A program made the position numbers and the translations under genes. Positions 1 through 43,347 of a DNA stretch of 43,347 nt are shown piece by piece; position 1 is the stretch's first letter, and each line of letters starts with the position of its first letter. The stretch covers positions 1 through 43,347 of IMG/VR virus record IMGVR_UViG_3300022231_000013; one strand, 5' to 3'. This DNA is from a virus. The notes beneath the pieces are model-generated. The model had not been told where the DNA came from. It worked only from the letters and a program-made list of their open reading frames with translations, and made no database searches.

Positions 1-44
1 ATGGACACCGGCCTGATCTGGTACGCAATTTACGGAGTGGCGGG
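1..44. repeat. terminal direct repeat, left copy
   Basis: nt 1-44 (ATGGACACCGGCCTGATCTGGTACGCAATTTACGGAGTGGCGGG) are identical to nt 43304-43347. Confidence 0.95.
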
Positions 45-715: not shown

Positions 716-3244
716 ATGTTTTCTATCGACGGCGGGTACAATATCCGCGAGGGCGACGATCGCATCATTTCGCAGCAGCGGGCGATCACAAAGGCAGTCA
801 ACGAAGGTTTCATTCAAGTAGGTGCCGTCTTCTTAAAACAAAGCGGCAAGATTCCCATCGACGGGGATTGGCACGGTCGAAATTTCCGCGACACCAATCT
901 GCAGGACTGGATAGACGACCCGGACTTCCGGTTCCACAACACCGGCTTCAATCTACAATTCGGCTGGACGGACGTCGACATCGATGTCGACGACCCCGAA
1001 TACAACGCCTGCCTCATTGCGGCGTTGGATCACTTAGGCGTAGATACGCGGTTCCGTTTCGGGCGCATGTCTGTGGGGTTCCCCACCCACGTATTGGTAC
1101 AGCTTGGTGAAGACGAGGCGTCTAATTTCGATGCCCTCACCAAGTTCGAACCCAAAGAATTTCGCATCAAAGGCAAACGGTTTAAGACGCAGATCAGGTC
1201 GTATTCTACGAACACCACTGCGTCCAATGTGGCTAAGACGGCCAAGCAAACGGTCATGCCGGGTTCCATCTACTCACACAAGAAGGAACACGGAGCTTAC
1301 GACATTTCGGCGTGGTACACTCAAGGCGGCGTTGTCGCCGAAAAAGTGAGCCAGATTGCGGCCACGACACCACGACGCGCGTCGTTTAACCAGATCGTCC
1401 GCGCCATCACATTCGCCACATTCCTATATGTCGTGAAAGATAGATGGGTGGAGGGGGAACGGCAGGCAATTGCAGCGAAAGTAGGAGGGTGGCTTGCACG
1501 CGTCGTAAAAGACAGCCGCGCCATGAACAACCATGAAGCTATCGCACAGGACGTATTTTGTCCCATCGACGATGATTCCATTGTTGACTCCCTTATACAC
1601 TTCGTTTGTGGATTTCAAGGAGACGAAGAACCCCATATGCGAGTGCGAGCGTACTATGACGCTGTTGCAAAGCTGGAACGAAATCCCGACGCCAAGATTC
1701 CCGGATGGCCTGCTATGGAGGCTTTGTTCGGAGGGGAGTGTGTTATTGCACTTCGGACCGTGTTCACCCCCGGAAGTGACGTTAGTGTGCTCAATGTTAT
1801 GGCAGAGAGGTACGTCTACGACGAAGCCGACAACCTGTACATCGATCGACGCAGACACTCCATGGATGGAAAGTTTGCGCACGAGTCTGGTGAACTCTAT
1901 ACACGCCACAAGGGAGACATCGTCCGTATTGCGGGCAAGCCACGCGAAGCTTTCAAGGTCTTTGAGTCCTCTGATATGCGAAAGCGTGTTGACCTTCGAT
2001 CACTTTACCCAGACTTATCGCCCGGAGGTATCTTCCGCATTAACTTCGCTGATGAAGTTCTACCAGACGACGTCGAAGACAGCGGGATGGTGATATTCAA
2101 CACGTGGCGCGGCTGGCCCATCGGCCCGACACAGGAAGTCAACGAAAAACTGATGCTGGAATGCGTCGAACGTCTGGACCGTCTACTCGGCTACATGACG
2201 CAGGACAACAAAAACCAGATTGAATGGTACAAGGATTGGGTGGCTTGGACATTCCAATTCCCCGGCAAGAAGCAACAAATCGCGCCGGTTTGCGTTGGTG
2301 GGCAGGGCGTCGGCAAATCGTTCTTCGGTAACACTGTGATGAAATCGCTGATGGGGCGGTTGTGGGGTTCCGCTTCGCCGAAAGTGATGGAGACCGGGTT
2401 TTCGGTGGAGCCATTCATCGACAAGATGTTCGTGTTCATCGACGAGGCTAAGTTCCACGGTGACGCAAGCACCGACGAAATTAAAAAGCTCATTCGAAAC
2501 ATCGACGTTGGTGGTGCCGAGAAGTTCCAATCCGCGCGGAATTTCCGGATATTCTCCCGGCTTATGTTCGCGAGTAACCGATACGACATGGGCGTCGGAC
2601 AATCTGGGGTGGTGGATCGAGCGTTGTTCTATACCAAAGCCTACGACCACGAGTTCCTCGGCATCACCGAAATAAAATTCCGTGAGTGGACCGAAACCCT
2701 GAAACCGTGGTTTGCGGAATACGCAGCGTTCCTTGAGCGCCGCGACGTGCGTGAACACTACATAAAGTACTTTATGGACCGCCCTGTGAACCAGCAGACG
2801 GTGGAAAGTATCAGGTACTCCAGCGCCAACGATGCGTCCATCGTCGCGGCCAACATGTCGTGGCCGCGCAAGATCGCAAAGAGGATCATCGAAGAAGGCA
2901 AGATCATGGATGGCGTGGCTCTGGAGGTTCCGTTCACCGAGCGCGACTTGAACGAGCGCGTCAACGAACTTGTCAAGGAAATGGGCATGCGGACGGTGCA
3001 GGGATCGCGCGTTCTGGCGGAGTTCCAGCAGGCTGGCATCCTTGGCGAAATCCGCAGCGGTTTTAAGCGCGCGTATCGGTTCACCCACAAGATCGGGGAC
3101 ACCACTCGTCTTTTCGGCGAAGCGATCAACGTCGAACTTTCGTCGCAGTTTGAGTTCACCGAAAACGACTACGGACCAAACGAAGCCGAAATAGGCGCGC
3201 GGCTGTCTTGGAAGGGGATCAATCCAGCCAAGGCGCAGTTCTAG
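716..3244 (+). CDS. DNA primase/polymerase-helicase fusion (prim-pol N-domain plus SF3/D5-type P-loop helicase), 842 aa
   Basis: N-terminal acidic motif GFNLQFGWTDVDIDVDD typical of bifunctional prim-pol domains. Walker A VGGQGVGKS and Walker B MFVFIDEA lie in the C-terminal half. The protein ends in ...AKAQF. Confidence 0.85.
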   Translation: MFSIDGGYNIREGDDRIISQQRAITKAVNEGFIQVGAVFLKQSGKIPIDGDWHGRNFRDTNLQDWIDDPDFRFHNTGFNLQFGWTDVDIDVDDPEYNACLIAALDHLGVDTRFRFGRMSVGFPTHVLVQLGEDEASNFDALTKFEPKEFRIKGKRFKTQIRSYSTNTTASNVAKTAKQTVMPGSIYSHKKEHGAYDISAWYTQGGVVAEKVSQIAATTPRRASFNQIVRAITFATFLYVVKDRWVEGERQAIAAKVGGWLARVVKDSRAMNNHEAIAQDVFCPIDDDSIVDSLIHFVCGFQGDEEPHMRVRAYYDAVAKLERNPDAKIPGWPAMEALFGGECVIALRTVFTPGSDVSVLNVMAERYVYDEADNLYIDRRRHSMDGKFAHESGELYTRHKGDIVRIAGKPREAFKVFESSDMRKRVDLRSLYPDLSPGGIFRINFADEVLPDDVEDSGMVIFNTWRGWPIGPTQEVNEKLMLECVERLDRLLGYMTQDNKNQIEWYKDWVAWTFQFPGKKQQIAPVCVGGQGVGKSFFGNTVMKSLMGRLWGSASPKVMETGFSVEPFIDKMFVFIDEAKFHGDASTDEIKKLIRNIDVGGAEKFQSARNFRIFSRLMFASNRYDMGVGQSGVVDRALFYTKAYDHEFLGITEIKFREWTETLKPWFAEYAAFLERRDVREHYIKYFMDRPVNQQTVESIRYSSANDASIVAANMSWPRKIAKRIIEEGKIMDGVALEVPFTERDLNERVNELVKEMGMRTVQGSRVLAEFQQAGILGEIRSGFKRAYRFTHKIGDTTRLFGEAINVELSSQFEFTENDYGPNEAEIGARLSWKGINPAKAQF

Positions 3245-3270: not shown

Positions 3271-3299
3271 TTGACAGGCAGCTGTCCGTGTGATATGAT
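3271..3299 (+). promoter_or_regulatory. sigma70-type promoter
   Basis: TTGACA (3271-3276), 17-nt spacer, TATGAT (3294-3299); lies directly after the primase stop. Confidence 0.6.
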
Positions 3300-3348: not shown

Positions 3349-3876
3349 ATGCGCAAACTCTACGCTCTCGGCCTCTCGGCTGCGATGCTGATGGCGGCAG
3401 CTGAACAGTCCGCCGCTGCCGGTTCCACCGAAGCCCTGGCCACGGAAGCCACCGCCAAGAAGTCGATCGTCCCGGCCAAGTACGCCGGCAAGTACAAGGG
3501 CGCCGGTGACTCGGTTTCCGAGTTCATCAACACGCAGTCGTCCGGCAAGGAAGGCTTCGAGTTCCCGGCCTTCTTCTCTCTCTGCCGCAAGAACGGCATC
3601 GCCGAAGACAAGGTCAAGCACTACGAAGACCAGGTTCTCGTCGAAAAGCGCAACGGTTCGCCGGGTCGCGCTCGCATGACCCTCGGCAACATGCTCCGTT
3701 CGATCGCCCGCAACAAGGGCCAGCTGATCGGCCTCAACGACGAAGCGACGACCTTCGCCGACCTGAAAAAGCCCGCCGTGTCGGGCGCAGCCGCCGCTGC
3801 TCAGGAAACCGCCGAAACCAAGGAAGAAGTCGCCTCCGGCGCGACGGAATCCGCGGCCGACGAAACGACCGAGTAA
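3349..3876 (+). CDS. paralog-family protein 1 (175 aa): signal-peptide-like N-terminus, conserved KYxGKYK...GRARMTLGN domain, acidic Ala/Thr/Glu tail
   Basis: In-frame ATG at 3349 preceded by AAGGAGAA. The longer track ORF from 3208 would overlap the promoter. Codons look very G/C-ending. The gene has its own promoter and terminator. Confidence 0.75.
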   Translation: MRKLYALGLSAAMLMAAAEQSAAAGSTEALATEATAKKSIVPAKYAGKYKGAGDSVSEFINTQSSGKEGFEFPAFFSLCRKNGIAEDKVKHYEDQVLVEKRNGSPGRARMTLGNMLRSIARNKGQLIGLNDEATTFADLKKPAVSGAAAAAQETAETKEEVASGATESAADETTE

Positions 3877-6492: not shown

Positions 6493-6666
6493 ATGGAAAA
6501 CGACGAAGAAATTCGGAAAGTGCTGCTGTATCGGGATAACGCTCGGTTCAACCTGAGACGCACTCTCAAGCGAATTGAATGGGCACAAGAGGCTAAGACG
6601 AGCTACATGCTTGAAATTCAGGCTCTGCAACGAGAACTCTATGGATTGGGATACACCGGCTCATGA
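6493..6666 (+). CDS. hypothetical coiled-coil protein (57 aa, MENDEEIRKVLLYRDNARFNLRRTLKRIEWAQEAKTSYMLEIQALQRELYGLGYTGS)
   Basis: Read by hand because it is below the track cutoff. ATG lies 3 nt after the previous stop. Its TGA overlaps the polymerase ATG (tcATGAtt, 6663-6666). Confidence 0.55.
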   Translation: MENDEEIRKVLLYRDNARFNLRRTLKRIEWAQEAKTSYMLEIQALQRELYGLGYTGS

Positions 6667-8513
6667 TTAAAACAGGCGTCATCGACCCCGAGTTGGCCCT
6701 CCGTATCGTCCGTGAAGACCCCGTAATGGCTTACGACACGGAAACAACCGGCCTCACCGCCCGCGATCTGATCTGCGGGTACGTCTTCACTAATTGGGAG
6801 TTTTCGGTATATGTGCCAGTTCGACACGAAATGGGAGGAAATATCCCGAACCCGAGCGATTTCGAGGCTGCGTTGGCAGAGGCGTTCATGGAACGCCATC
6901 GTCTGGGCTACCGTACTGTTGGTCACCATCTTGGGTTCGACCTTCGTGCTTCCCTCCGACACGGTATTCGCATTCTCGGCCCCTGCGAAGACACACAAAT
7001 CAACGAAAGCCTCATCAACGATCGAACTGTCGGCTATTCCCTCGACGAGTGCGCTCAAAGACGCGGTGTCACGGCGAAAAAGGGCGATGCAATGTACCGT
7101 GCGATCGCCGCTCGGTTCGGGGGTCTTCCCGACAAGAAGTCGATGGCCAACTTCTGGCGCATGCCGGGGGACCAATTTGAAACCGTAGACTACGCTACGG
7201 GCGACGGTGTTTCGACGCTGGAACTGTGGCAGGTCCAGCAAAAAATCCTCGACGAGGAAGAACTACGTGTTCCGTGGCAACTGGAGTGCGATCTGCTGCC
7301 ATACGTCGCCCGCATCCACAACCGTGGAATCAAGATCGACAAAAATTACGCCGAAAAAGCGAAGTCCGACATCAAGGGCAGCATCGACGAAGCCAAGTCG
7401 AAATTTCCGCCCGGCTTCAACGTTCGATCGACCAGCGAGGTTTACGAACTATACAGGCAGAACGGATACACCGATGATCAATTCGCCCGCACTGAACCGA
7501 CTGCGAAGCACCCACAAGGCCAAGTTAGCTTCCGAGAAAAGTGGCTCGAAAAGAACGCTATCGGTAAAGCTATCCTTTCGGTGCGACAACTCGAAAAAGC
7601 AGAGTCGTCTTTTATTGCCCCGCTCGTCGAAACCCAAAACATCAACGGACGGGTTCATCCCGTTCTGCACCAGTCCAAGGGCGACGACTACGGCGTTGCT
7701 GGCGCTCGTTTTTCGTGCTCTGATCCGAACATGCAAGCGTATCCGAAACGCAACAAGGTTATCGGCAAGGTAGTTAGGCCGCACGTCATACCCGATGATG
7801 GTATGGTAATTGAAGAAGCAGATGCGATGCAGCAGGAGCCGCGCTTCTTCACCCACTATTCCCAAGACAAGGCGCTTCTTGAAGGCTATCGATCGGGCAC
7901 GATGGACATTCACGACCGGGCGTCTGAGGTTCTCGGCCTAGACCGAGACTACGCCAAGCGTCTAGGTCTCGGGATGCTTACGATGATGTCACCGCCTACT
8001 CTGGCGATGCATATGGATTACAGCATCGACGAAGCACGGCGCGACCACAAAGCGTTCTTGACGGAGGCTTTCCCTGACATCAAAAAGTTCCAGGACTTGG
8101 CGGTCGGGGTGTATAAGAAACGGGGCTTCGTCAAGTCTATTCTCGGGCGCAAAGCTCGCTGCGAAGACCCACGGTTCGCCTACCAAGCCGTGTCGCGCAT
8201 CATTCAAAACGGCGGCGGCGACCACCTCAAGGTTTGCTTGCTTCGGGCTTGCCAGTTCGAGGACGCGCATCCCGACGTCATTCAGTTGCTTCTAACCATC
8301 CACGATTCGCTCATCTGGCAGCGAGACCCCGGTGCCTTGAAGCAGCTCAAGGAGCTGATCGCCATCATCGAAAACGTGCCGCACGAGCCGCAATTCAACC
8401 TTTCGGTGCCGATCCCATTCGAGCTAGGTTCCGGCCTTCATTGGGCCGAAGCATCATATGGCGCGAAGCTCAAAGACAAGAAAGGGTGGGTCGGTGAACT
8501 CGCGAATATTTAA
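6663..8513 (+). CDS. family-A DNA polymerase with 3'-5' exonuclease (616 aa); candidate DpoZ-type enzyme
   Basis: Exo I AYDTETTGL. Motif A EADAMQQEPR. Motif B RDYAKRLGLGMLTMMS. Motif C LLLTIHDSLIW. C-terminal VPIPFELGSGLHWAEA matches Klenow VPLLVEVGSGENWDQA. Confidence 0.9.
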   Translation: MIKTGVIDPELALRIVREDPVMAYDTETTGLTARDLICGYVFTNWEFSVYVPVRHEMGGNIPNPSDFEAALAEAFMERHRLGYRTVGHHLGFDLRASLRHGIRILGPCEDTQINESLINDRTVGYSLDECAQRRGVTAKKGDAMYRAIAARFGGLPDKKSMANFWRMPGDQFETVDYATGDGVSTLELWQVQQKILDEEELRVPWQLECDLLPYVARIHNRGIKIDKNYAEKAKSDIKGSIDEAKSKFPPGFNVRSTSEVYELYRQNGYTDDQFARTEPTAKHPQGQVSFREKWLEKNAIGKAILSVRQLEKAESSFIAPLVETQNINGRVHPVLHQSKGDDYGVAGARFSCSDPNMQAYPKRNKVIGKVVRPHVIPDDGMVIEEADAMQQEPRFFTHYSQDKALLEGYRSGTMDIHDRASEVLGLDRDYAKRLGLGMLTMMSPPTLAMHMDYSIDEARRDHKAFLTEAFPDIKKFQDLAVGVYKKRGFVKSILGRKARCEDPRFAYQAVSRIIQNGGGDHLKVCLLRACQFEDAHPDVIQLLLTIHDSLIWQRDPGALKQLKELIAIIENVPHEPQFNLSVPIPFELGSGLHWAEASYGAKLKDKKGWVGELANI

Positions 8514-9580: not shown

Positions 9581-10028
9581 CCACCGAAAAACCGCCAGCC
9601 ACGTGTTGCACACGGCCCATAAGGTCGTGACCACCGAAAGGGGGAACCAGCATGGCGGCGCGGAAGATAGCTTCCAGATGATCGGCGACCTGTGGGGCAC
9701 GTATCTGAGCAACACGAAGGACAACCAGGGTGCACAGCAGCGCATCCGGGTCACCGCCTACGACGTTGCGCAGATGATGGTCCTGCTCAAGATCGCCCGC
9801 GCAACACACGGCGACCCGCTCAACGATGATCATTACATCGACGCGGCGGGGTATACCGGCCTTGCGGCGGCGATCGCCGGGGTGAAGACGCCGGAGCAGA
9901 AGGCTGAGGCCGAAACCACCAAAGCTCTCGCCAAGGCGTTTTCGCCCGCCACCGAGCGTGCCGAAGCCAACGAGGGCCGCATCCCGGTTCAGAAGCCGGT
10001 ACTTCCCCGCAATCCGGAGCAGGTATAA
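9567..10028 (+). CDS. conserved phage protein (153 aa), DUF6378-like pattern
   Basis: Pattern ERGNQHGGAEDSF..IGDLWGTYL...YDVAQMMVLLKIARATHG...DDHYIDAAGYTGLAA. Its stop overlaps the purZ start (TAATG). Confidence 0.7.
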   Translation: MNDSDHRKTASHVLHTAHKVVTTERGNQHGGAEDSFQMIGDLWGTYLSNTKDNQGAQQRIRVTAYDVAQMMVLLKIARATHGDPLNDDHYIDAAGYTGLAAAIAGVKTPEQKAEAETTKALAKAFSPATERAEANEGRIPVQKPVLPRNPEQV

Positions 10029-11095
10029 TGGGACATTTCGACATGCGCCTTTTCGGTGACTACGGCATCCACGCTATCGCAGATGGCCAATTCGGTTCCA
10101 CCGGCAAGGGCGTCCTTGCTGCGTGGTTGGCTGCTCGTGCTGTCGAGCAGGACATTGACTTCCGGGCTTGCGTAAGCAACGCTGGCCCGAACTCCGGTCA
10201 CACGTTCTATCACAACGGCGAAAAACACGTGCTCAAGCAGCTGCCCACTTTCGCCGTGGCCGCGCATCTGCTCGGCATGGACATGCCCGTATTCCTTACA
10301 GCGGGGGCGGTGATCGACCCGGAAATTCTGTGGGCAGAGTGCGCCCGCTATCCGGGTGTGCAGGTGTTCGTCAACAACATGGCGTCGGTGATCACGCCGG
10401 AGGACAAACATTCCGAGGCTGACCCGGCTGGCAGCATAGCTGCAGTAGCCGGGACCCGCAGCGGCACCGGAATGGCCCAAGCGAACAAGATCATGCGCCA
10501 CCCGCGCGCTGTTTTCCGAAACATCGACCCGGCCCGCTTCCCCGCCAATCTGACGGCTTACACCAAGTGGGACCCGCTGATGACGGTGGACTGCGTCTAT
10601 TCGGGATGCACGTTCATGGAAATCAGCCAGGGTTTCTCGCTCGGCATCAATTCGGAGTTTTATCCGAAAGTAACGAGCCGGGAATGCACGGTGATGCAGG
10701 GCCTCGCTGATGCGCGGCTTCCGGCACGCGCTCTCACCCGGTCCTACCTTTCGATGCGGACTTATCCGATCCGGGTCGGCAACGTCGACGGTCATTCGTC
10801 TGGAGATTGCTACGACGATCAGGAAGAGATTTCGTGGGACAGCATCGGTCAGAAGCCGGAACTTACCACGGTGACGCAGCGGGAGCGTCGTCTCTTCACG
10901 TTCTCCCGCAAACAGGCTGAGGAAGCTATCGTCGCCAACGATCCTGATTTCGTCTTCCTGAACTTCATGAACTACCTCAACGAAAACGGGCAGGCATCGC
11001 TGCTTGGCCTTTTCGACGGGTTGAAGGACATCGGCGGGCGACAGTTCCAGATGATCCTCGGTAACGGCCCGACCAGCGACGACGTGGTGTTCTGA
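10028..11095 (+). CDS. purZ: PurZ, adenylosuccinate-synthetase homologue making N6-succino-2-amino-dAMP (355 aa)
   Basis: PurA motifs are conserved (AGPNSGHT, VAGTRSGTGMAQANK, MEISQGFSLG, YPKVTSRE, TTVTQRERR). The P-loop reads DGQFGSTGKG, with Ser in place of the PurA catalytic Asp. Confidence 0.8.
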   Translation: MGHFDMRLFGDYGIHAIADGQFGSTGKGVLAAWLAARAVEQDIDFRACVSNAGPNSGHTFYHNGEKHVLKQLPTFAVAAHLLGMDMPVFLTAGAVIDPEILWAECARYPGVQVFVNNMASVITPEDKHSEADPAGSIAAVAGTRSGTGMAQANKIMRHPRAVFRNIDPARFPANLTAYTKWDPLMTVDCVYSGCTFMEISQGFSLGINSEFYPKVTSRECTVMQGLADARLPARALTRSYLSMRTYPIRVGNVDGHSSGDCYDDQEEISWDSIGQKPELTTVTQRERRLFTFSRKQAEEAIVANDPDFVFLNFMNYLNENGQASLLGLFDGLKDIGGRQFQMILGNGPTSDDVVF

Positions 11096-11433
11096 TGGCA
11101 GACCGCATGGACGCGTTCAAAGAAATGGGGGCGTCGACACCGACGCCCTTCTTCAAATTCACCGTGTCGCTGGAAGGCGACATGGCCAAGTACGGCCCGG
11201 ACATTCGTCGCTTCGTCGACACGATGACGTACAAGCTGGAGAAAAATGTCCACAAGGGTAAGTGGGAAGACTTGGACATGACCACTGCTTTCCGGCGACT
11301 GATGGACGAAACTGAGGAACTGCGCCACGAAGTGGTCAATGGGAGCAACACCCTAAAGGTGATGCTTGAAGCCGCCGACGTCGCCAACTTCGCACTCATC
11401 ATTGCCGCCATGGCGATCGAGGGACGGAAATGA
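11095..11433 (+). CDS. mazZ: MazG-like nucleotide pyrophosphohydrolase (112 aa), MazZ candidate
   Basis: All-alpha MazG signature LMDETEELRHE ... MLEAADVANFALII. TGATG overlap with purZ and ATGA overlap with the next gene. Confidence 0.7.
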   Translation: MADRMDAFKEMGASTPTPFFKFTVSLEGDMAKYGPDIRRFVDTMTYKLEKNVHKGKWEDLDMTTAFRRLMDETEELRHEVVNGSNTLKVMLEAADVANFALIIAAMAIEGRK

Positions 11434-12005
11434 ACAAACACGAAAAAATTTGGAGCGAGTACGACGCTCGCCTTTCGGTGGTTCAACGTTGGGGCATCGC
11501 CCCGACCATCCAGAAGCAGAGCGTGGCGGAACACTGCTTCAACGTCGAAAGGATAGCCATCCGCATCGCCAAGGAATGGTTCGACATCGGCGGTCCGACG
11601 ACGGGCGACGGCTGGAAGTGGGAAATCGTCAAGTGGGCGCACCACCATGACGATCTTGAGGCCCTGATGGGTGATCCGCCGACTATGTCCAAGCCGTATT
11701 TCCTTGAGAAGGAAATGGCTGAGGATCATCAGGACCTTATTCCGCTTCGGGAGCCGCTCAACGCCGAAATAAAGGCGATCGTGAAACTGGCCGACCTGTT
11801 AGAAGGGTTCCGATTCCTGTGTATGGAACGCGCTCTCGGCAACTATTTTCTCGACGCCCATTGGGAAAACTACTTCACCGAAATAGAAAATCATATTCGC
11901 GCTTCCTGGCCCGATAAAGTGTCGTTTGTTTGGACCCGCGCCCACTCCTTCATGAATTATCTTTCGGCAATGAAATCCAAGCGTGAATCGCGGAGGGGGC
12001 GCTAA
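11430..12005 (+). CDS. datZ: HD-domain dNTP phosphohydrolase (191 aa), DatZ candidate
   Basis: HD-superfamily residues VAEHCFNV ... KWAHHHDDLEALMGD ... ; sits immediately after mazZ. Confidence 0.7.
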   Translation: MNKHEKIWSEYDARLSVVQRWGIAPTIQKQSVAEHCFNVERIAIRIAKEWFDIGGPTTGDGWKWEIVKWAHHHDDLEALMGDPPTMSKPYFLEKEMAEDHQDLIPLREPLNAEIKAIVKLADLLEGFRFLCMERALGNYFLDAHWENYFTEIENHIRASWPDKVSFVWTRAHSFMNYLSAMKSKRESRRGR

Positions 12006-13402
12006 TGTGGGAACCAAAAGGCGCACAGGTTGAAGCGTTGAAACGAAGCCGCGACAAACGCGGCTTCGGCTATTTTATGGAGCAGGGTCTTGGAAAGACT
12101 ACTACTACCTACGCTGATTTTCTGGACCACGGTCAACGCGGTTTTGTTGATCGCATGGTTACGCTCGCACCTAACTCTTTTAAAGGGGGCTGGGCGGATG
12201 AAGTCGACAAATTCGGGTTCCCTATTACTCCTATCGTCTTTGAATCAGGGAATACTTCTCATCTTAGTTCTTTGTTTAAGCGCGGGTTTAACACTCGTCC
12301 AAATCTTATCGTGAATTACGAGGCAATCCGCAGCGAAAGTACGCGCGACATCATTCGGGATTTTATTCGTGGGCGGGATTGTTATATCGCCGCCGACGAG
12401 AGCATCAAGCTCAAAGACCACGACAGTGCGCAGACCAAAGCTGCCCTGGAACTGTCCAAAGAATTCGCTTTCAGCCGCATCCTTTCGGGGAAGCCGATCA
12501 GCCAAGGTCCACATGACCTGTGGGCGCAGATGCGGTTCATCAAGCAACTGAACGGTAAGACGTTTTACCCGTTCAAGTCGGCGTTCTGTAAGATGGGCGG
12601 CTTCAAAATGAAGCAGGTCGTCGGAGCGCAGAACGAGGAAATCCTGGCCGAACTTATCGATCCGCACGTATTCCGCGCCACCAAGGCCGAGTGGACCGAC
12701 CTACCACCCAAGGTGTACACCACCCGCGAATATTCCATGACGCCGGAGCAGCGCAATCTGTACCGGCAGATGGAAGAAGAATTCGTTATTTGGCTCGGAG
12801 ACGGCGAACACGTCGCGGTCGATCAGGCTATTACGAAGTACATTAAACTAGCCCAAATCCAGGCTGGTTTCATCATCGACGGGGAAGGGAACACACGTAT
12901 CCTCGTCGACCCGGCGAAAAACCCACGCCTGAACGTTTTAGAAGACATCATCCGCGACGAAATCGTCGGCAAGGTTTCGGTGGTTTACAACCACAAGGTT
13001 GTTCGACCGATGCTCTACGAGCGGTTCGCGAAGTACAACCCGACCCATATTAGTGGGGGAATGACGCCGCAGGAAATTGAGGACAATAAGAGGAAGTTCA
13101 ACAATGACCCGACGTGTCGTATTATATTCCTCACAAAAGCGGCTAAGTATGGGCATACTCTATTGGGAGGACCAGAACCTCAAAACCATTGTTCGACGCA
13201 GATATTTTATGAGAACACGTATTCCCTTGACGACCGAAGCCAGATCGAAGATCGAAGTCATCGTTACGGCCAGCTTGGCGAATCAATGTCTTATTACGAT
13301 ATAGTCGGAACCCCGCTCGACAAAGCGGCGACGAAAGCACTGCAGCGAAAAGAAGGCGTGTTCCAATCCGTCTTCAAAAACATAGGGAAGCACAGACTAT
13401 GA
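12005..13402 (+). CDS. SNF2-family helicase/ATPase (465 aa)
   Basis: Motif I EQGLGKTTTT, motif II AADESIKLKD, motif VI QIEDRSHRYGQ. TAATG overlap with datZ. Visibly more A/T-rich than its neighbours. Confidence 0.85.
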   Translation: MWEPKGAQVEALKRSRDKRGFGYFMEQGLGKTTTTYADFLDHGQRGFVDRMVTLAPNSFKGGWADEVDKFGFPITPIVFESGNTSHLSSLFKRGFNTRPNLIVNYEAIRSESTRDIIRDFIRGRDCYIAADESIKLKDHDSAQTKAALELSKEFAFSRILSGKPISQGPHDLWAQMRFIKQLNGKTFYPFKSAFCKMGGFKMKQVVGAQNEEILAELIDPHVFRATKAEWTDLPPKVYTTREYSMTPEQRNLYRQMEEEFVIWLGDGEHVAVDQAITKYIKLAQIQAGFIIDGEGNTRILVDPAKNPRLNVLEDIIRDEIVGKVSVVYNHKVVRPMLYERFAKYNPTHISGGMTPQEIEDNKRKFNNDPTCRIIFLTKAAKYGHTLLGGPEPQNHCSTQIFYENTYSLDDRSQIEDRSHRYGQLGESMSYYDIVGTPLDKAATKALQRKEGVFQSVFKNIGKHRL

Positions 13403-34428: not shown

Positions 34429-34457
34429 ACTATAGCACACGCGCGCGGGCGCGTCAA
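34429..34457 (-). promoter_or_regulatory. sigma70-type promoter
   Basis: Minus strand reads TTGACG (34457-34452), 17 nt ending GC, TATAGT (34434-34429). The -35 box contains the TGA stop of the HNH gene. Confidence 0.6.
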
Positions 34458-34873
34458 GTAGGGGCGGAACCACGGAACTTGCCGTCCGGCGACCTGATAA
34501 CAGTTACTTTCCCATTCTTCCATGCCTGTTTACAGTTTAGTGATTGGCTTCCGTACATCAAATTATCGAGTGTGTTATTGTCACGATTGTCGTCCCGATG
34601 TAGCACGTTCATACCAGGGGGCCGTGGCCCGATGAACAGTTTTGCCACTTCTTTGTGGACTAACAATGTTTTCTTTTTAAACTCCCCACTCGGCAATTTG
34701 TCCGGTAGTTTTACGTTGAAGCCAAGGTATATTCTTTTGCCGTGATTGGCTCCCTTGTTTACCCGTTTCAATCTCCGACGAACCCACGTTCCAGTTAACA
34801 TTGATTCGACGTTACCCAAATTAGACACACGATACATCGGGTGCTCCGGTATTACACGAAATTCTTCTTGCAT
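34454..34873 (-). CDS. free-standing homing endonuclease, NUMOD4 + HNH_3 type (139 aa)
   Basis: MYRVSNLGNVES (NUMOD4-like) and VLHRDDNRDNNTLDNLMYGSQSLN (HNH_3-like); visibly A/T-rich relative to its flanks. Confidence 0.8.
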   Translation of the reverse strand: MQEEFRVIPEHPMYRVSNLGNVESMLTGTWVRRRLKRVNKGANHGKRIYLGFNVKLPDKLPSGEFKKKTLLVHKEVAKLFIGPRPPGMNVLHRDDNRDNNTLDNLMYGSQSLNCKQAWKNGKVTVIRSPDGKFRGSAPT

Positions 34874-36209: not shown

Positions 36210-36632
36210 ATGTCTGAGTACTACAAGCGTATGGTGGCCGAACGCAAAAAGAAGGAAGAAGAATTCCGCATCTATACGAACGAGCGTATCGCGGCGATGG
36301 ACGCGCAGCGAACAAAAGACCGTCTTTCGGCGTCTGTTCGTGACGAGGTGGAAAAAGCCGCATACACGCCGACTAGCAATGCGCCGCGTTTCACCGTGGA
36401 GCAACGTCTGCGCGCCGTCGCCACAGTGTTGGCAGGCTGCAGCACCAACGGGACGGCGCGGTACATGGGAATGTCCGTCAGCAACCTCAAAAAGCTAATA
36501 GCTCAGAAGAACATACAAAAGGCCGTAGAAACCTTGGGTATAGAAGAGTTCGTGAAGGAATACGCAATCGACGAGGACGTCGCAGCGATCAAAGCCAATA
36601 CAGCAAAATACACGACACCCAAGGCATATTGA
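36210..36632 (+). CDS. early HTH DNA-binding protein (140 aa)
   Basis: FTVEQRLRAVATVLAGCSTNGTARYMGMSVSNLKKLI resembles transposase-type HTH domains; RBS CTGGAGAT. Confidence 0.65.
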   Translation: MSEYYKRMVAERKKKEEEFRIYTNERIAAMDAQRTKDRLSASVRDEVEKAAYTPTSNAPRFTVEQRLRAVATVLAGCSTNGTARYMGMSVSNLKKLIAQKNIQKAVETLGIEEFVKEYAIDEDVAAIKANTAKYTTPKAY

Positions 36633-36657
36633 CAAACCCTCTCACCTGTGCTACAAT
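36629..36657 (+). promoter_or_regulatory. sigma70-type promoter
   Basis: TTGACA (36629-36634, containing the upstream TGA stop), 17 nt ending GC, TACAAT (36652-36657). Confidence 0.65.
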
Positions 36658-36686: not shown

Positions 36687-37259
36687 ATGGCACGCAAGAC
36701 CACCATCGAATACCGCGACCACAAGATCGTCGGCAACAAGGCTGTCGGCTACGAAACCATCAACGAAGACGGCGAAGTCACCCACGGCGCGTTTTCGACG
36801 ATTGAGGAAGCCAAGGAGCATATCGACCACGACGAGGATTTCGTCGATTTGGAGCAGATGGAAGCCGAGGATGGCGAAGACTATCACCCCGGTTCCGTCG
36901 TGGCTGGCTCGTTCAAGGTCAAATACCGGGAACGCGCCATCGCCATGACCCGCAAGCCCAAGGACGTGTCGATGAAGGCTCTCAAGCGTTCGACGAGCGA
37001 CTGGCTGGCAATCGAACTGGCCCGCCGCACTCTGGACGAAAAGGCTGTCCTTTCGGTGCCCGCTTTCGAAGCCATCCTCGACGCGAACGGTGTTGCCCAT
37101 CGCCACTGGAACCGGACTACGAAAGGCTGGCAGGGTCGTCTCCGGATGACGGGCCGTCTGGCTCTGCAGCGCATCGTCGCCGAACATGGCGAATTGGCTC
37201 TGCCCGATGGGTCTGCGATCCCGGCCCCCAAGAATTGGATCGCGAAACACACGCATTAG
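36687..37259 (+). CDS. paralog-family protein 2 (190 aa)
   Basis: ATG at 36687 after ACAGGAGA. C-terminal domain GSVVAGSFKVKYRERA...DWLAIELA...FEAILDANGVA...GWQGRLRMTGRLALQRIV. Confidence 0.7.
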   Translation: MARKTTIEYRDHKIVGNKAVGYETINEDGEVTHGAFSTIEEAKEHIDHDEDFVDLEQMEAEDGEDYHPGSVVAGSFKVKYRERAIAMTRKPKDVSMKALKRSTSDWLAIELARRTLDEKAVLSVPAFEAILDANGVAHRHWNRTTKGWQGRLRMTGRLALQRIVAEHGELALPDGSAIPAPKNWIAKHTH

Positions 37260-38558: not shown

Positions 38559-38587
38559 TTGACAAAGTGTCCCTGCTGTGGTACAGT
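38559..38587 (+). promoter_or_regulatory. sigma70-type promoter
   Basis: TTGACA (38559-38564), 17 nt ending GTGG, TACAGT (38582-38587). A 7-bp dyad, 38567-38573 / 38589-38595. Confidence 0.65.
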
Positions 38588-41728: not shown

Positions 41729-42208
41729 ATGAAGGGTAAGAAAATCTCGGTTTGCAGCTGCGAAAATTCGACGGCTGACAACGCATTCGAAACGGCCATG
41801 GGCTTCATCGAACTGATGCAGATGCGCAAGATGTGCGAGAAGCAGATGCTCGCCGCCGCGTTGGTGGTAATTACCGTGACCACGCAGCTCGTCGAAGTTG
41901 TAGTCGATGCACATGCCCGCGTCGATTACGACGCCAATCCGGGCGACATGGTCGATATGCTCACCGCCTTTGCTAGCTCGCAGGAGTTCGCGACGGGGCA
42001 GAAGGCCGAGGTCAAGAAGACGATGGACGACTACGTCGGCAGCAACCCCGATGCTCGCACGAGGGTCAACGCTCTGTACGACGCCGCCCGCGCGTCGGTG
42101 CCGGGTTTCACGGAAATGAAGGAGCGCGTCAACGAACACATGGCGAGCGTTGACCCGATTTCGCAGCTGCTCGCCGCCATCCTGAACTCCGCGTCGAAGC
42201 CCCATTGA
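41729..42208 (+). CDS. hypothetical early protein (159 aa)
   Basis: RBS ACAGGAGA; ORF track. Confidence 0.65.
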   Translation: MKGKKISVCSCENSTADNAFETAMGFIELMQMRKMCEKQMLAAALVVITVTTQLVEVVVDAHARVDYDANPGDMVDMLTAFASSQEFATGQKAEVKKTMDDYVGSNPDARTRVNALYDAARASVPGFTEMKERVNEHMASVDPISQLLAAILNSASKPH

Positions 42209-42233
42209 CACCCCGAATCACCTGTGGTATAAT
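42205..42233 (+). promoter_or_regulatory. sigma70-type promoter (perfect TTGACA-17-TATAAT)
   Basis: TTGACA (42205-42210, containing the upstream TGA stop), 17 nt ending GTGG, TATAAT (42228-42233). Followed by the leader hairpin CGGGGGTGA / TCACCCCCG at 42245-42265. Confidence 0.7.
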
Positions 42234-42287
42234 GTAAACATGATCGGGGGTGATGGTCACCCCCGAACTCATTAACGGAGACAGGGA

Positions 42288-43304
42288 ATGCCGATCACCA
42301 TCCACCACACCACCAAAAAGAGCGCCGAAAAACAGGGCGTCCTGCTCGAAGTTGACGGCTCGACTGTCCGCGCGTTCATTCCGAAGAACGGCACGGCTGT
42401 TTTCGGCGTATCGGGGCAGGATGCACTCAAGCAGGTGCTCGCAGCGCAGGAATTGTTCACCAAGTCCAGCGAAAACGTGCGTTACCGCCACGGCGACGAT
42501 CCGAAAATTCGTGGCAAGTTGGAAAAGAACGGTAAGACAGGGAATGCCGAGCCGTCGATCACGGAAGGCACACCGGTCGAGCTGCTCGCCCTCTGGGAAG
42601 CCGGGACGATCGAATGGGATGACGCTCCGGTTACGATTGACTGGGACGAAAAGCTGATCGTCGACAACATCGAGGACACGCTGCCGGACGGCGGACCCAA
42701 CTCTGGTTTCGTTGAGGACGAACACCCCAAGGAACCGGCTGTAGACAGCCGCCCCGTCATCAGGCGCGCTGAGAACGGCGTGGCTCTGGACGGCGCTGTC
42801 GCCTATCGCGAGGGCATCACGGCGGCGGACTGCCCGTATTCCTCTGAGACCGACGACGAGGAAGAATACGCCAACTTCGAGCGCTGGAACGAAGAATGGG
42901 ACGCCGCCGCAGACGCCGCCGAGGAAGAAGAGTCGGAAGGCAAAGGCGGCTCGGTGGTCAAGTCCAAGTACCGCGAAAAGTACAAAGAACTCGGCCACCC
43001 GACCCATTGCGGCGACTGGCTGGCGGAACTGCTCAACAACTACTGCATCGGCGACAAGAACACCGATCTGGAGACGTTCGAGCGCATCTGCAGCCTGAAC
43101 GGCGTCGACACCAGCAAGTACCGCCGCGAGGGCGTCGGTTGGCAGGGGCGCATTCGGATGACGGGCCGCAATCTGCTCGCTAAGCGCGTGTTTTCGGCGG
43201 GTAAGATCACCGTGCCGAACACGGATGGCGGGGAACCCATCACGCTCGACGCTCCTGCCGACTGGATGGCTGCGCAACGTTACAACAAGCCCGAGACGAA
43301 GTGA
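42288..43304 (+). CDS. paralog-family protein 3 (338 aa) with Rmf-like CPY motif and an acidic linker
   Basis: AYREGITAADCPYSSE...FERWNEEWDAA (Rmf-like). C-terminal GSVVKSKYREKYKE...DWLAELL...FERICSLNGVD...GWQGRIRMTGRNLLAKRV. Confidence 0.75.
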   Translation: MPITIHHTTKKSAEKQGVLLEVDGSTVRAFIPKNGTAVFGVSGQDALKQVLAAQELFTKSSENVRYRHGDDPKIRGKLEKNGKTGNAEPSITEGTPVELLALWEAGTIEWDDAPVTIDWDEKLIVDNIEDTLPDGGPNSGFVEDEHPKEPAVDSRPVIRRAENGVALDGAVAYREGITAADCPYSSETDDEEEYANFERWNEEWDAAADAAEEEESEGKGGSVVKSKYREKYKELGHPTHCGDWLAELLNNYCIGDKNTDLETFERICSLNGVDTSKYRREGVGWQGRIRMTGRNLLAKRVFSAGKITVPNTDGGEPITLDAPADWMAAQRYNKPETK

Positions 43305-43347
43305 TGGACACCGGCCTGATCTGGTACGCAATTTACGGAGTGGCGGG
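43304..43347. repeat. terminal direct repeat, right copy
   Basis: exact 44-nt copy of nt 1-44; indicates a circular assembly overlap or a short DTR. Confidence 0.95.

What the first reader, a model, noticed from the sequence alone, without database searches (positions are those of the whole stretch)
42288..43304. Three-member paralog family sharing an unassigned KY..KY / GWQGRxRMTGR domain
Three proteins share a domain of about 110 aa with the same order of motifs:
- 42288 gene: GSVVKSKYREKYKE..DWLAELL..FERICSLNGVD..GWQGRIRMTGRNLLAKRV
- 36687 gene: GSVVAGSFKVKYRERA..DWLAIELA..FEAILDANGVA..GWQGRLRMTGRLALQRIV
- 3349 gene: KSIVPAKYAGKYKGAGD..FFSLCRKNGIA..GSPGRARMTLGNMLRSIA

Each copy has its own strong promoter and a different N-terminal module. 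The 42288 copy has an Rmf-like CPY motif plus an acidic linker. The 36687 copy has an acidic region. The 3349 copy has a signal-like hydrophobic N-terminus plus an acidic tail.

I cannot place the shared domain in any family I know. Triplication in a 43-kb genome implies strong selection, for example host takeover, DNA or RNA binding, or anti-defence.
Basis: seen in the sequence. Interest (0 to 1): 0.65.

Follow-up and report, generated by a model that had tools for sequence, protein, structure and literature searches.

The report
Undescribed multi-copy phage early-protein domain
Three early genes of this 43-kb phage, which carries the genes for replacing adenine with 2-aminoadenine in its DNA, share a basic, mostly helical 115-residue domain that matches no known family or structure; its relatives also carry 2-4 copies, and its function is still unknown.

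Summary
The proteins at 42288-43304, 36687-37259 and 3349-3876 share a C-terminal domain of about 115 aa (pairwise BLASTP E = 2e-14, 2e-8, 3e-4). Each has its own ortholog in Ochrobactrum phage vB_OspP_OH (gp15, gp04, gp23), so the triplication is older than the split of the two phages.

- **Unassigned:** nothing significant in Pfam, PHROGs, NCBIfam, PADLOC, PDB sequences or Foldseek against PDB. In BFVD only the three OH proteins match.
- **Large and phage-only:** 1,060 clusters at 50% identity in metagenomes. There are none in 185,579 representative bacterial and archaeal genomes. Among 50,697 phage records only OH has it.
- **Copy number and position:** 52 related viral contigs carry 1-4 copies each (2-4 where the locus spans the early region) at conserved positions. 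One copy sits at or near the start of the early region, one upstream of the primase-polymerase and one directly after it.
- **Charge pattern:** the domain is basic (mean +6.8) and the preceding 30 aa are acidic (mean -7.9).

My best guess, at about 0.35, is a nucleic-acid-anchoring module with winged-helix-like element order. The variable N-terminal parts would give each paralog its own role. This is inferred, not shown. About a quarter of the post-primase copies have signal-peptide-like N-termini, which argues against it.

The parts
42205..42233 (+). Sigma-70-type extended -10 promoter (TTGACA-17-TATAAT, TG upstream) in front of the B-type gene
   Evidence: 12 of 12 consensus match; sequence read. 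One of 15 such promoters in the genome.
42244..42266 (+). 10-bp-stem hairpin in the 5' leader of the B-type gene, between promoter and ribosome-binding site
   Evidence: Inverted repeat TCGGGGGTGA-TGG-TCACCCCCGA seen. Function not tested.
42288..43304 (+). B-type paralog (338 aa), ortholog of OH gp15
   Evidence: ORF; 45-46% identity over the full length to OH gp15. AlphaFold2 mean pLDDT 81.
42288..42488 (+). N-terminal alpha-beta-beta-beta-alpha domain of the B-type protein (aa 1-67, motif M-x-I-H-H), probably HicB/UPF0150-like
   Evidence: pLDDT 92-97. Foldseek hit 2yzt with prob 0.82, TM 0.56 normalised to the target, rmsd 1.3 A over 43 columns. An independent PDB profile search picks the same chain at E = 0.25. 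Found in 61 of 128 B-type proteins.
42765..42941 (+). Rmf/CrpP-like C-P-Y...W...W-D segment followed by a long acidic helix (aa 160-218) of the B-type protein
   Evidence: pLDDT 86-97. Sub-threshold NCBIfam CrpP_rel (E = 0.031) and Rmf_CrpP (E = 0.092) hits at aa 168-206. Motif present in 46 of 128 B-type proteins.
42945..43301 (+). Shared domain, B-type copy (aa 220-338)
   Evidence: HMM envelope 220-338, net charge +4, pI 9.0, and the 30 aa before it carry -12. Domain-only model has pLDDT 82 and pTM 0.71.
36629..36657 (+). Sigma-70-type extended -10 promoter in front of the A-type gene
   Evidence: 11 of 12 consensus match; sequence read.
36687..37259 (+). A-type paralog (190 aa), ortholog of OH gp04. 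It has a small N-terminal part, an acidic linker, then the domain.
   Evidence: The ATG at 36687 follows CAGGAG, and a near-identical 190-aa metagenomic protein (P0004) starts at the same place. The 206-aa call (P0035) would start inside the promoter.
36891..37256 (+). Shared domain, A-type copy (aa 69-190), with a basic insertion (RKPKDVSMKALKRS) between the first two helices
   Evidence: Alignments; 66% identity to OH gp04.
3271..3299 (+). Sigma-70-type extended -10 promoter in front of the C-type gene
   Evidence: 11 of 12 consensus match; sequence read.
3349..3876 (+). C-type paralog (175 aa), ortholog of OH gp23, directly downstream of the primase-polymerase gene (716-3244)
   Evidence: The position after the primase-polymerase and before the Gam-like gene is conserved in related contigs.
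3349..3420 (+). Signal-peptide-like N-terminus of the C-type protein (MRK, then a 15-residue hydrophobic run, then AAA-EQ)
   Evidence: Kyte-Doolittle maximum 1.82 over 15 residues. The same feature occurs in 7 of 30 C-type proteins with unrelated sequences.
3457..3813 (+). Shared domain, C-type copy (aa 37-155)
   Evidence: HMM envelope 37-155, net charge +6, pI 9.6.
3814..3873 (+). Acidic C-terminal tail of the C-type protein (net charge -6)
   Evidence: Family-wide, C-type tails have a median length of 14.5 aa and a median charge of -3.

Best explanation
The three genes encode members of a previously undescribed, phage-only domain family, called here the KY-GWQGR domain. It is about 115 aa, basic and mostly helical, and it sits at or near the C-terminal end of the protein.

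My proposed mechanism is inferred, not shown:
- The domain is a common anchoring module that binds nucleic acid, most likely DNA. Binding would go through the invariant Arg-rich loop and helix start (G-x-x-G-R-x-R-M-T-x-R) and the Lys/Tyr-rich first helix.
- The acidic stretch next to it tempers this binding or recruits partner proteins, as acidic tails do in other nucleic-acid-binding proteins.
- The variable N-terminal parts give each paralog a separate job at a separate place in the programme. The A-type acts at or near the start of the early region. The B-type carries a HicB-like fold and an Rmf/CrpP-like motif. The C-type sits inside the replication module, directly after the primase-polymerase.
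For: **Shown**
- Paralogy and orthology.
- Family size: 1,279 proteins in the 90%-identity collection and 1,060 clusters at 50% identity.
- The 52 related contigs carry 1-4 copies each (2-4 where the locus spans the early region), in a conserved gene order.
- Over 273 proteins the domain has a mean net charge of +6.8. The 30 aa before it average -7.9, and 80% of them are at or below -5.
- D, N, G, G-R, R-M-T are invariant across all types.

**Suggestive**
- The AlphaFold2 element order helix-strand-helix-helix-strand-strand is that of a winged helix.
- MarR-family regulators fill the top of the Foldseek PDB list, but at chance-level scores.
- The C-type lies between the primase-polymerase and the Gam-like gene, in a genome with no recognisable single-strand-binding protein.
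- The B-type architecture, a HicB-like N-domain plus a C-terminal basic domain, parallels HicB antitoxins. That HicB antitoxins end in a DNA-binding domain is established knowledge; the fold evidence is.
- The A-type adds a further basic insertion, giving a median domain charge of +11.
Against: - No significant similarity to any DNA- or RNA-binding fold. The best Foldseek PDB hit has E = 0.4, TM 0.17-0.21 and rmsd about 14 A. PDB and Pfam profile searches are empty.
- 7 of 30 C-type proteins, including the one in this window, have Sec-signal-like N-termini. By the positive-inside rule these would put the domain outside the cytoplasm.
- I found no shared operator-like repeat in the window.
- The Rmf-like and dsRBD/HicB-like modules of the B-type would fit RNA or ribosome binding as well as DNA binding.
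- No experiment exists for any member. Every database name is 'hypothetical protein'.
Confidence: 0.35

Rival explanations
1. The domain is a protein-protein adaptor that docks on one host hub protein, for example RNA polymerase, the sliding clamp or a membrane complex. The different N-terminal parts are the effectors delivered to that hub, making this a host-takeover toolkit.
For: - All copies are in the early and replication region, behind strong host-type promoters.
- The N-terminal parts are hypervariable while the C-terminal domain is constant.
- No nucleic-acid-binding fold could be recognised.
- The phage encodes no recognisable RNA polymerase and carries sigma-70-type consensus promoters on both strands, so it presumably relies on the host enzyme.
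Against: - The strongly basic domain paired with an acidic neighbour is more typical of nucleic-acid binders.
- The family is absent from cellular genomes, so there is no host counterpart to point to a partner.
- The signal-like N-termini of some C-types would separate them from a cytoplasmic hub.
Confidence: 0.25
2. The domain binds RNA or the ribosome. The B-type protein, with its HicB/dsRBD-like fold and Rmf/CrpP-like motif, would then be a translation-directed takeover factor, and the other paralogs would target RNA too.
For: - Recurrent sub-threshold Rmf/CrpP hits fall on the same C-P-Y...W...W segment, and the motif is in 46 of 128 B-types.
- The N-domain has alpha-beta-beta-beta-alpha topology and matches a HicB-like structure.
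- The domain is basic.
Against: - All Rmf/CrpP scores are far below the curated cut-offs, 12-15 bits against 28-35.
- A-type and C-type proteins lack these modules.
- The C-type sits in the DNA replication module.
Confidence: 0.15
3. The domain is a small enzyme or a small-molecule or nucleotide binder. The invariant glycine/arginine loop at a helix start would be an anion (phosphate) binding site, and the invariant Asp, Asn and Thr would be catalytic or ligand-binding residues.
For: D, N-G and G-x-x-G-R-x-R-M-T stay strictly invariant across types that share only 20-35% identity. The family co-occurs with the 2-aminoadenine pathway genes in this clade.
Against: - About 115 aa, mostly helical, with no match to any enzyme fold.
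- Three to four catalytic paralogs per 43-kb genome would be unusual.
- 95 phage records carry PurZ but only OH has the domain, so it is not part of the general 2-aminoadenine pathway.
Confidence: 0.1
4. At least the C-type copies that have a signal-like N-terminus act in the envelope or periplasm, for example in superinfection exclusion or in a membrane-associated step. The domain would then recognise an envelope component or incoming DNA.
For: 7 of 30 C-type proteins have an N-terminus with a positive start, a 15-residue hydrophobic run and a small-residue cleavage-like site. Their sequences are unrelated to each other, which argues that the feature is selected. The start codon in the window is well supported.
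Against: The other 23 of 30 C-types, including OH gp23, have short acidic N-termini and no room upstream for a longer one. The gene lies in the replication module. No signal-peptide predictor was available, so I used hydropathy only.
Confidence: 0.1

Closest known systems
Ochrobactrum phage vB_OspP_OH gp04, gp15, gp23 (YP_010665223, YP_010665234, YP_010665242; genus Wolominvirus)
   Same: They are one-to-one orthologs of the three window proteins: 66% identity (A-type domain), 45% full length (B-type) and 57-63% (C-type). Gene order is the same and the genome also carries PurZ. They are the only structural matches in BFVD, at E = 3e-12, 5e-7 and 6e-5.
   Different: All three are annotated 'hypothetical protein', and the paper describing the phage does not mention them as a family. 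OH gp04 lacks the N-terminal part of the window's A-type, and OH gp23 lacks the signal-like N-terminus.
MarR-type winged-helix DNA-binding domains
   Same: The order of secondary-structure elements is the same: helix, helix, strand, helix, long helix, beta-hairpin, helix. MarR-family chains take most of the top Foldseek PDB ranks.
   Different: The scores are at chance level: E = 0.4-1, probability 0.1 or less, TM 0.17-0.21, rmsd 13-15 A. The loop before the long helix is about 14 residues instead of a tight turn. There is no sequence-profile match.
DUF3489 (PF11994), small proteins of alpha- and beta-proteobacterial plasmids and islands
   Same: A G-W-Q motif followed by Arg and Gly at the start of a helix, then Gly-Leu and a hairpin. 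hhalign aligns the two families in exactly this register.
   Different: The match is not significant: probability 0.3%, E = 0.2, against a shallow four-sequence DUF3489 alignment. The Pfam model hit none of 121 family members.
HicB antitoxins (HicB-fold N-domain plus C-terminal DNA-binding domain)
   Same: The B-type protein has an N-terminal domain resembling the HicB/UPF0150 fold (2yzt) and a basic C-terminal domain, which parallels HicB architecture. The HicB architecture is established knowledge.
   Different: The fold match is weak (Foldseek E = 1.8, profile E = 0.25). There is no HicA-like partner gene nearby. The C-terminal domain is neither a ribbon-helix-helix nor an Xre-type helix-turn-helix, and a long acidic linker is inserted.
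Rmf/CrpP family (ribosome modulation factor and CrpP-related small proteins)
   Same: The B-type middle segment has the pattern C-P-Y, then a spacer, then W-x-x-x-W-D-x-A. It draws repeated weak hits from the RMF, CrpP_rel and Rmf_CrpP models.
   Different: Scores are 12-15 bits against cut-offs of 28-35. The segment is only one module of a 338-aa protein, and A- and C-types lack it.
Bro-N / KilA-N type modular viral DNA-binding domains (analogy from general knowledge; not tested here)
   Same: In both cases one conserved domain occurs in several paralogs per viral genome, each joined to a different partner region.
   Different: There is no sequence or structural relationship. Those domains are N-terminal and are also found in prophages and cellular genomes. 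This domain sits at or near the C-terminus and is absent from 185,579 cellular genomes.

Membership tests
Winged helix-turn-helix (MarR-like) | Element order H1-S1-H2-H3-S2-S3 | tested here: met
   In the AlphaFold2 model: H244-253, short strand 254-259, H261-270, H285-304, E306-309, E318-321.
Winged helix-turn-helix (MarR-like) | Significant three-dimensional superposition on solved winged-helix domains | tested here: not met
   Best Foldseek PDB match has E = 0.4, TM 0.17-0.21 and rmsd 13-15 A. The full-length model gives nothing better.
Winged helix-turn-helix (MarR-like) | Sequence-profile match to a known helix-turn-helix family | tested here: not met
   No Pfam hit in 121 members. No PDB profile hit. 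No NCBIfam hit.
Winged helix-turn-helix (MarR-like) | Binds DNA | not testable with these tools
   Needs a gel-shift or similar assay.
DUF3489 (PF11994) | Match to the family profile | tested here: not met
   hhalign probability 0.3%, E = 0.2, against four verified DUF3489 proteins. No PF11994 hit in 121 members. The test alignment was shallow, so very remote homology is not excluded.
Rmf/CrpP family (middle segment of the B-type only) | Score above the curated cut-off of the RMF, CrpP_rel or Rmf_CrpP models | tested here: not met
   12.4-14.6 bits against cut-offs of 28 and 35. Pfam RMF best E = 0.011, in 2 of 121 members.
Rmf/CrpP family (middle segment of the B-type only) | C-P-Y ... W ... 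W signature | tested here: met
   Present in the window protein (aa about 181-206) and in 46 of 128 B-type proteins.
HicB/UPF0150 fold (N-domain of the B-type only) | Structural and sequence similarity to a solved member | tested here: inconclusive
   2yzt by Foldseek: probability 0.82, TM 0.56 normalised to the target, rmsd 1.3 A over 43 columns, but E = 1.8. The PDB profile search gives the same chain as its only hit, at E = 0.25.
OB-fold single-strand DNA-binding proteins (considered for the C-type) | Beta-barrel OB fold | tested here: not met
   The domain is predicted to be mostly helical, and there is no SSB family hit. Only the acidic C-terminal tail resembles SSBs.
HU/IHF (considered because of the R-x-G-R-N string) | Match to the Bac_DNA_binding profile, and a beta-arm at the motif | tested here: not met
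   No Pfam hit. The motif lies at the start of a helix in the model.
Known anti-phage defence or counter-defence families (PADLOC models) | Profile match | tested here: not met
   One chance-level hit only, E = 0.017 and 12 bits.

The most novel reading that the evidence does not exclude
The KY-GWQGR domain could be a new nucleic-acid-binding fold that this clade of 2-aminoadenine phages uses to handle its own modified DNA. For example, it might tell phage DNA from host DNA, and so direct replication, transcription by the host polymerase, or shut-off of host DNA. The 2-4 paralogs would serve different stages of infection.
Probability: 0.1. Interest if true: 0.85.

Novelty: categorically new. 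Interest (0 to 1): 0.45.

Why it matters
- **An unnamed family of real size.** More than a thousand 50%-identity clusters have no name, no structure and no assigned function. Every sampled member of one phage lineage keeps 2-4 copies, conserved about as well as its polymerase. That marks the family as important to the infection cycle.
- **A tractable lineage.** These phages carry the genes that replace adenine with 2-aminoadenine, and one member (vB_OspP_OH on Ochrobactrum sp. POC9) is in culture, so the genes can be knocked out and the proteins purified.
- **Possible payoff.** The result could be a new DNA- or RNA-binding fold, a new host-takeover principle, or a link to how host enzymes cope with modified DNA.
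- **A caution on the novelty label.** 'Categorically new' here means only that no known family or fold could be assigned. It does not mean a new mechanism has been shown, and orphan families are common in phages.

Tried and rejected
- **DUF3489.** I recalled a G-W-Q...R-G motif and tested the idea. A recalled sequence did retrieve genuine 'DUF3489 domain-containing' genes. However, hhalign of the family against four of them gave probability 0.3%. Rejected as unsupported.
- **HU/IHF-like R-x-G-R-N string and Fic-like G-N-G-R string.** No profile or fold support. Rejected.
- **Classical SSB for the C-type.** The fold is helical, not an OB barrel. Rejected as a family assignment. Only the acidic-tail analogy remains.
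- **Part of the general 2-aminoadenine pathway.** 95 phage records carry PurZ, but only OH has the domain. Rejected as a general requirement.
- **Prophage or cellular origin.** No relative in 185,579 species genomes.
- **Fusions to known domains.** None of the 240 best proteins listed in two searches (120 each, with some overlap) has a Pfam domain. One 436-aa protein (P0143) begins with a long transposase-like-looking stretch unrelated to the family, probably an insertion or misassembly; I did not scan it against any library.
- **Shared operator motif near the promoters.** None found.
- **Single-sequence search with the B-type N-domain.** It returned nothing because no 5-residue words were shared. 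That search was wasted.
- **Megablast of the early region against phage genomes.** No match.
Full report
**1. What the window is.**
The window is a complete phage genome assembled as a circle. Bases 1-44 repeat at 43304-43347, so the unique length is 43,303 bp.

The genes on the + strand are:
- a primase-polymerase (716-3244);
- a family A DNA polymerase (6663-8513);
- a helicase (12005-13402);
- the three genes of the 2-aminoadenine pathway: PurZ (10028-11095), a MazZ-like gene (11095-11433) and a YfbR-like dATPase (11430-12005).

The structural genes are on the - strand.

Megablast of the early region against 50,697 phage records found nothing. At protein level the only cultured relative is Ochrobactrum phage vB_OspP_OH, genus Wolominvirus, 41.2 kb. 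It has the same gene order and 45-77% protein identity.

**2.
The three proteins exist as described, with good ribosome-binding sites. Their C-terminal parts are significantly similar:
- 42288 vs 36687: E = 2e-14.
- 42288 vs 3349: E = 2e-8.
- 36687 vs 3349: E = 3e-4.

Each has its own ortholog in OH:
- the 36687 protein matches gp04 (66%);
- the 42288 protein matches gp15 (45% over the full length);
- the 3349 protein matches gp23 (57-63%).

The OH proteins also cross-hit the other window paralogs. The triplication is therefore older than the split of the two phages.

An HMM of the domain finds three copies in the window and no fourth. I call the types A (36687), B (42288) and C (3349).

Each gene has a near-consensus extended -10 promoter. 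So do 12 other places in the genome, on both strands. The promoters are real features but do not set these genes apart.

**3. The domain matches nothing known.**

| Library or method | Result |
|---|---|
| Pfam (three proteins, then 121 family members one by one) | no consistent hit |
| PHROGs | no hit to the domain |
| NCBIfam | no hit to the domain |
| PADLOC | no hit to the domain |
| Profile searches against all PDB sequences | nothing below E = 0.01 |
| Foldseek vs PDB, full-length model (pLDDT 81) | no match below E = 0.4 |
| Foldseek vs PDB, domain-only model (pLDDT 82, pTM 0.71) | no match below E = 0.4 |
| Foldseek vs BFVD (predicted viral structures) | only the three OH proteins match |

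MarR-type winged-helix regulators fill the top of the PDB list. The predicted order of elements (helix, strand, helix, long helix, hairpin) is that of a winged helix. However, TM-scores of 0.17-0.21 and rmsd near 14 A are chance level.

I tested one lead from memory, a G-W-Q motif shared with DUF3489. The recalled sequence retrieved genuine DUF3489 genes. The profile-profile comparison gave probability 0.3%.

**4. The family is large, phage-only and multi-copy.**
- *Size.* A six-sequence profile found 1,279 proteins in the 5.8-billion-sequence collection. A 121-sequence profile found 1,060 clusters at 50% identity, 594 of them below 1e-10.
- *Annotation.* No listed protein has a Pfam domain or a name other than 'hypothetical protein'. 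None lies on a contig longer than about 45 kb.
- *Cellular genomes.* A scan of one genome for each of 185,579 bacterial and archaeal species found no relative.
- *Cultured phages.* Only OH carries it, although 95 phage records carry PurZ.
- *Viral contigs.* Fifty-two IMG/VR loci encode it. All belong to the same kind of 40-45 kb phage.
- *Copies per locus.* An HMM scan of their six-frame ORFs shows 1-4 copies per locus, 2-4 wherever the locus spans the early region.
- *Gene order.* A-type at or near the start of the early region, sometimes with a second A-like gene on the opposite strand; a helix-turn-helix gene; B-type; primase-polymerase; C-type directly after it; Gam-like gene; Pam3-gp34-like gene; polymerase; PurZ.
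- *Distant relative.* A distant member on a different 40-kb contig type keeps at least two copies. One is near the start of the early region and one is shortly after the primase.

Domain identity between the window and OH is 57-66%. That is similar to the polymerase, primase-polymerase and PurZ at 58-59%.

**5. Anatomy.**
Over 273 proteins:
- The domain is at or near the C-terminal end.
- Its mean net charge is +6.8.
- The 30 residues before it average -7.9, and 80% of them are at or below -5.

The three types differ as follows:

| Type | Number (Met start) | N-terminal part, median | Its charge, median | Domain charge, median | C-terminal tail |
|---|---|---|---|---|---|
| A | 109 | 49 aa | -9 | +11 | none |
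| B | 128 | 130 aa | -18 | +5 | about 3 aa |
| C | 30 | 18 aa | -3 | +6 | 14.5 aa, acidic |

The A-type owes its high domain charge to a basic insertion. Across the 121 aligned A-, B- and C-type sequences the invariant residues are an Asp at the start of the second helix, an Asn-Gly after the third helix, and G-x-x-G-R-x-R-M-T at the start of the long helix. In a separate set of the most divergent members, V, D, L, N, G, G-R and M remain invariant.

The B-type of the window has two extra modules.
- *Residues 1-67.* They form a confident alpha-beta-beta-beta-alpha domain. Its best structural match is the HicB-like protein 2yzt: probability 0.82, TM 0.56 normalised to the target, rmsd 1.3 A. A separate sequence-profile search returns the same chain as its only hit, at E = 0.25.
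- *Residues 160-218.* They carry a C-P-Y...W...W-D motif. It gives repeated but sub-threshold hits to Rmf/CrpP models.

The C-type of the window starts with a signal-peptide-like segment. Seven of 30 C-type proteins have one, with unrelated sequences, so it looks selected.

**6. How it most likely works.**
No experiment or recognisable fold fixes the function. What follows is inference.

The pairing of a basic domain with an acidic neighbour is typical of proteins that bind nucleic acid and modulate that binding with an acidic tail. The cluster of invariant arginines at a helix start, the winged-helix-like element order and the extra basic insertion of the A-type point the same way. So does the placement of the C-type inside a replication module that has no recognisable single-strand-binding protein. 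The B-type architecture also parallels HicB antitoxins, which end in a DNA-binding domain; that last point is established knowledge.

I therefore rate 'common nucleic-acid-anchoring module with variable heads' as the best explanation, at about 0.35.

Three facts weigh against it: no significant fold match, the signal-like N-termini of some C-types, and no shared operator motif.

The rivals are:
- a protein-docking adaptor for a host hub (0.25);
- RNA or ribosome binding (0.15);
- a small enzyme or ligand binder built on the invariant loop (0.10);
- an envelope role for the signal-bearing C-types (0.10).

**7. Link to 2-aminoadenine.**
PurZ was found in most related loci that extend at least about 1.5 kb past the polymerase. 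A few loci with 2-2.5 kb of room showed none. This is a lineage correlation. The domain is missing from all other PurZ phages in GenBank, so it is not a general part of that pathway. A clade-specific role in handling modified DNA is not excluded. I give it about 0.1.

**8. Verdict.**
It is an undescribed domain family, kept in 2-4 copies by a whole lineage of phages that carry the 2-aminoadenine pathway genes, and its function is unknown. 'Categorically new' here means only that no known family or fold could be assigned. Orphan families are common in phages, so interest is moderate (0.45). The conserved copy number, the conserved positions and the availability of a cultured model phage make it a good target for experiments.

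Noticed in passing
window 1-44 and 43304-43347: The two ends of the window are identical over 44 bases, so the contig is a circularly closed assembly with a unique length of 43,303 bp. The gene after the 42288 gene starts at 43304 (= position 1), with its ATG overlapping the stop codon by one base.
   Followed up: partly
window 10028-12005: PurZ, MazZ-like and YfbR-like dATPase genes lie together. The phage therefore most likely replaces adenine with 2-aminoadenine in its DNA. 95 phage records in GenBank carry a PurZ homolog.
   Followed up: partly
window, 15 sites, e.g. 603, 3271, 4255, 36146, 36629, 38559, 39933, 41664, 42205 (+) and 24468, 28430, 32914, 34296, 34457, 34931 (-): There are fifteen near-consensus extended -10 promoters (TTGAC[AGT], 14-16 nt, TGnTAnnnT) on both strands, including the structural-gene strand. 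No phage RNA polymerase was seen. The virion DNA presumably carries 2-aminoadenine in these -10 elements.
   Followed up: partly
window promoters at 38559 (+), 41664 (+), 32914 (-): Three of the 15 promoters have a 7-10 nt inverted repeat whose arms bracket the -10 element (spacer against initially transcribed region). Each repeat has a different sequence. Only 1.9% of random sites with the same geometry reach 7 nt. The meaning is unknown.
   Followed up: partly
window 42288-42488: The N-terminal domain of the 42288 protein (motif M-x-I-H-H) looks like a HicB/UPF0150 fold. Foldseek and an independent PDB profile search both pick 2yzt, in both cases weakly. It occurs in 61 of 128 B-type proteins.
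   Followed up: partly
window 3349-3420 and six other C-type proteins (P0037, P0041, P0061, P0073, P0102, P0259): A minority of the post-primase paralogs have Sec-signal-like N-termini. This is hard to reconcile with a cytoplasmic DNA-related role.
   Followed up: partly
window 34454-34873 (-): An HNH endonuclease with a NUMOD4 motif lies in the leftward early region. The tblastn mapping of OH proteins onto the window found no OH counterpart there.
   Followed up: no
whole window: No recognisable single-strand DNA-binding protein was found among the early and replication genes scanned with Pfam and PHROGs.
   Followed up: partly
L054 19413-19640: A distant relative of this phage group encodes a Tad2-like protein (an anti-Thoeris family, by the Pfam name) in its replication region.
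   Followed up: no
window 42244-42266: A 10-bp-stem hairpin lies in the 5' leader of the 42288 gene, between its promoter and its ribosome-binding site.
   Followed up: no
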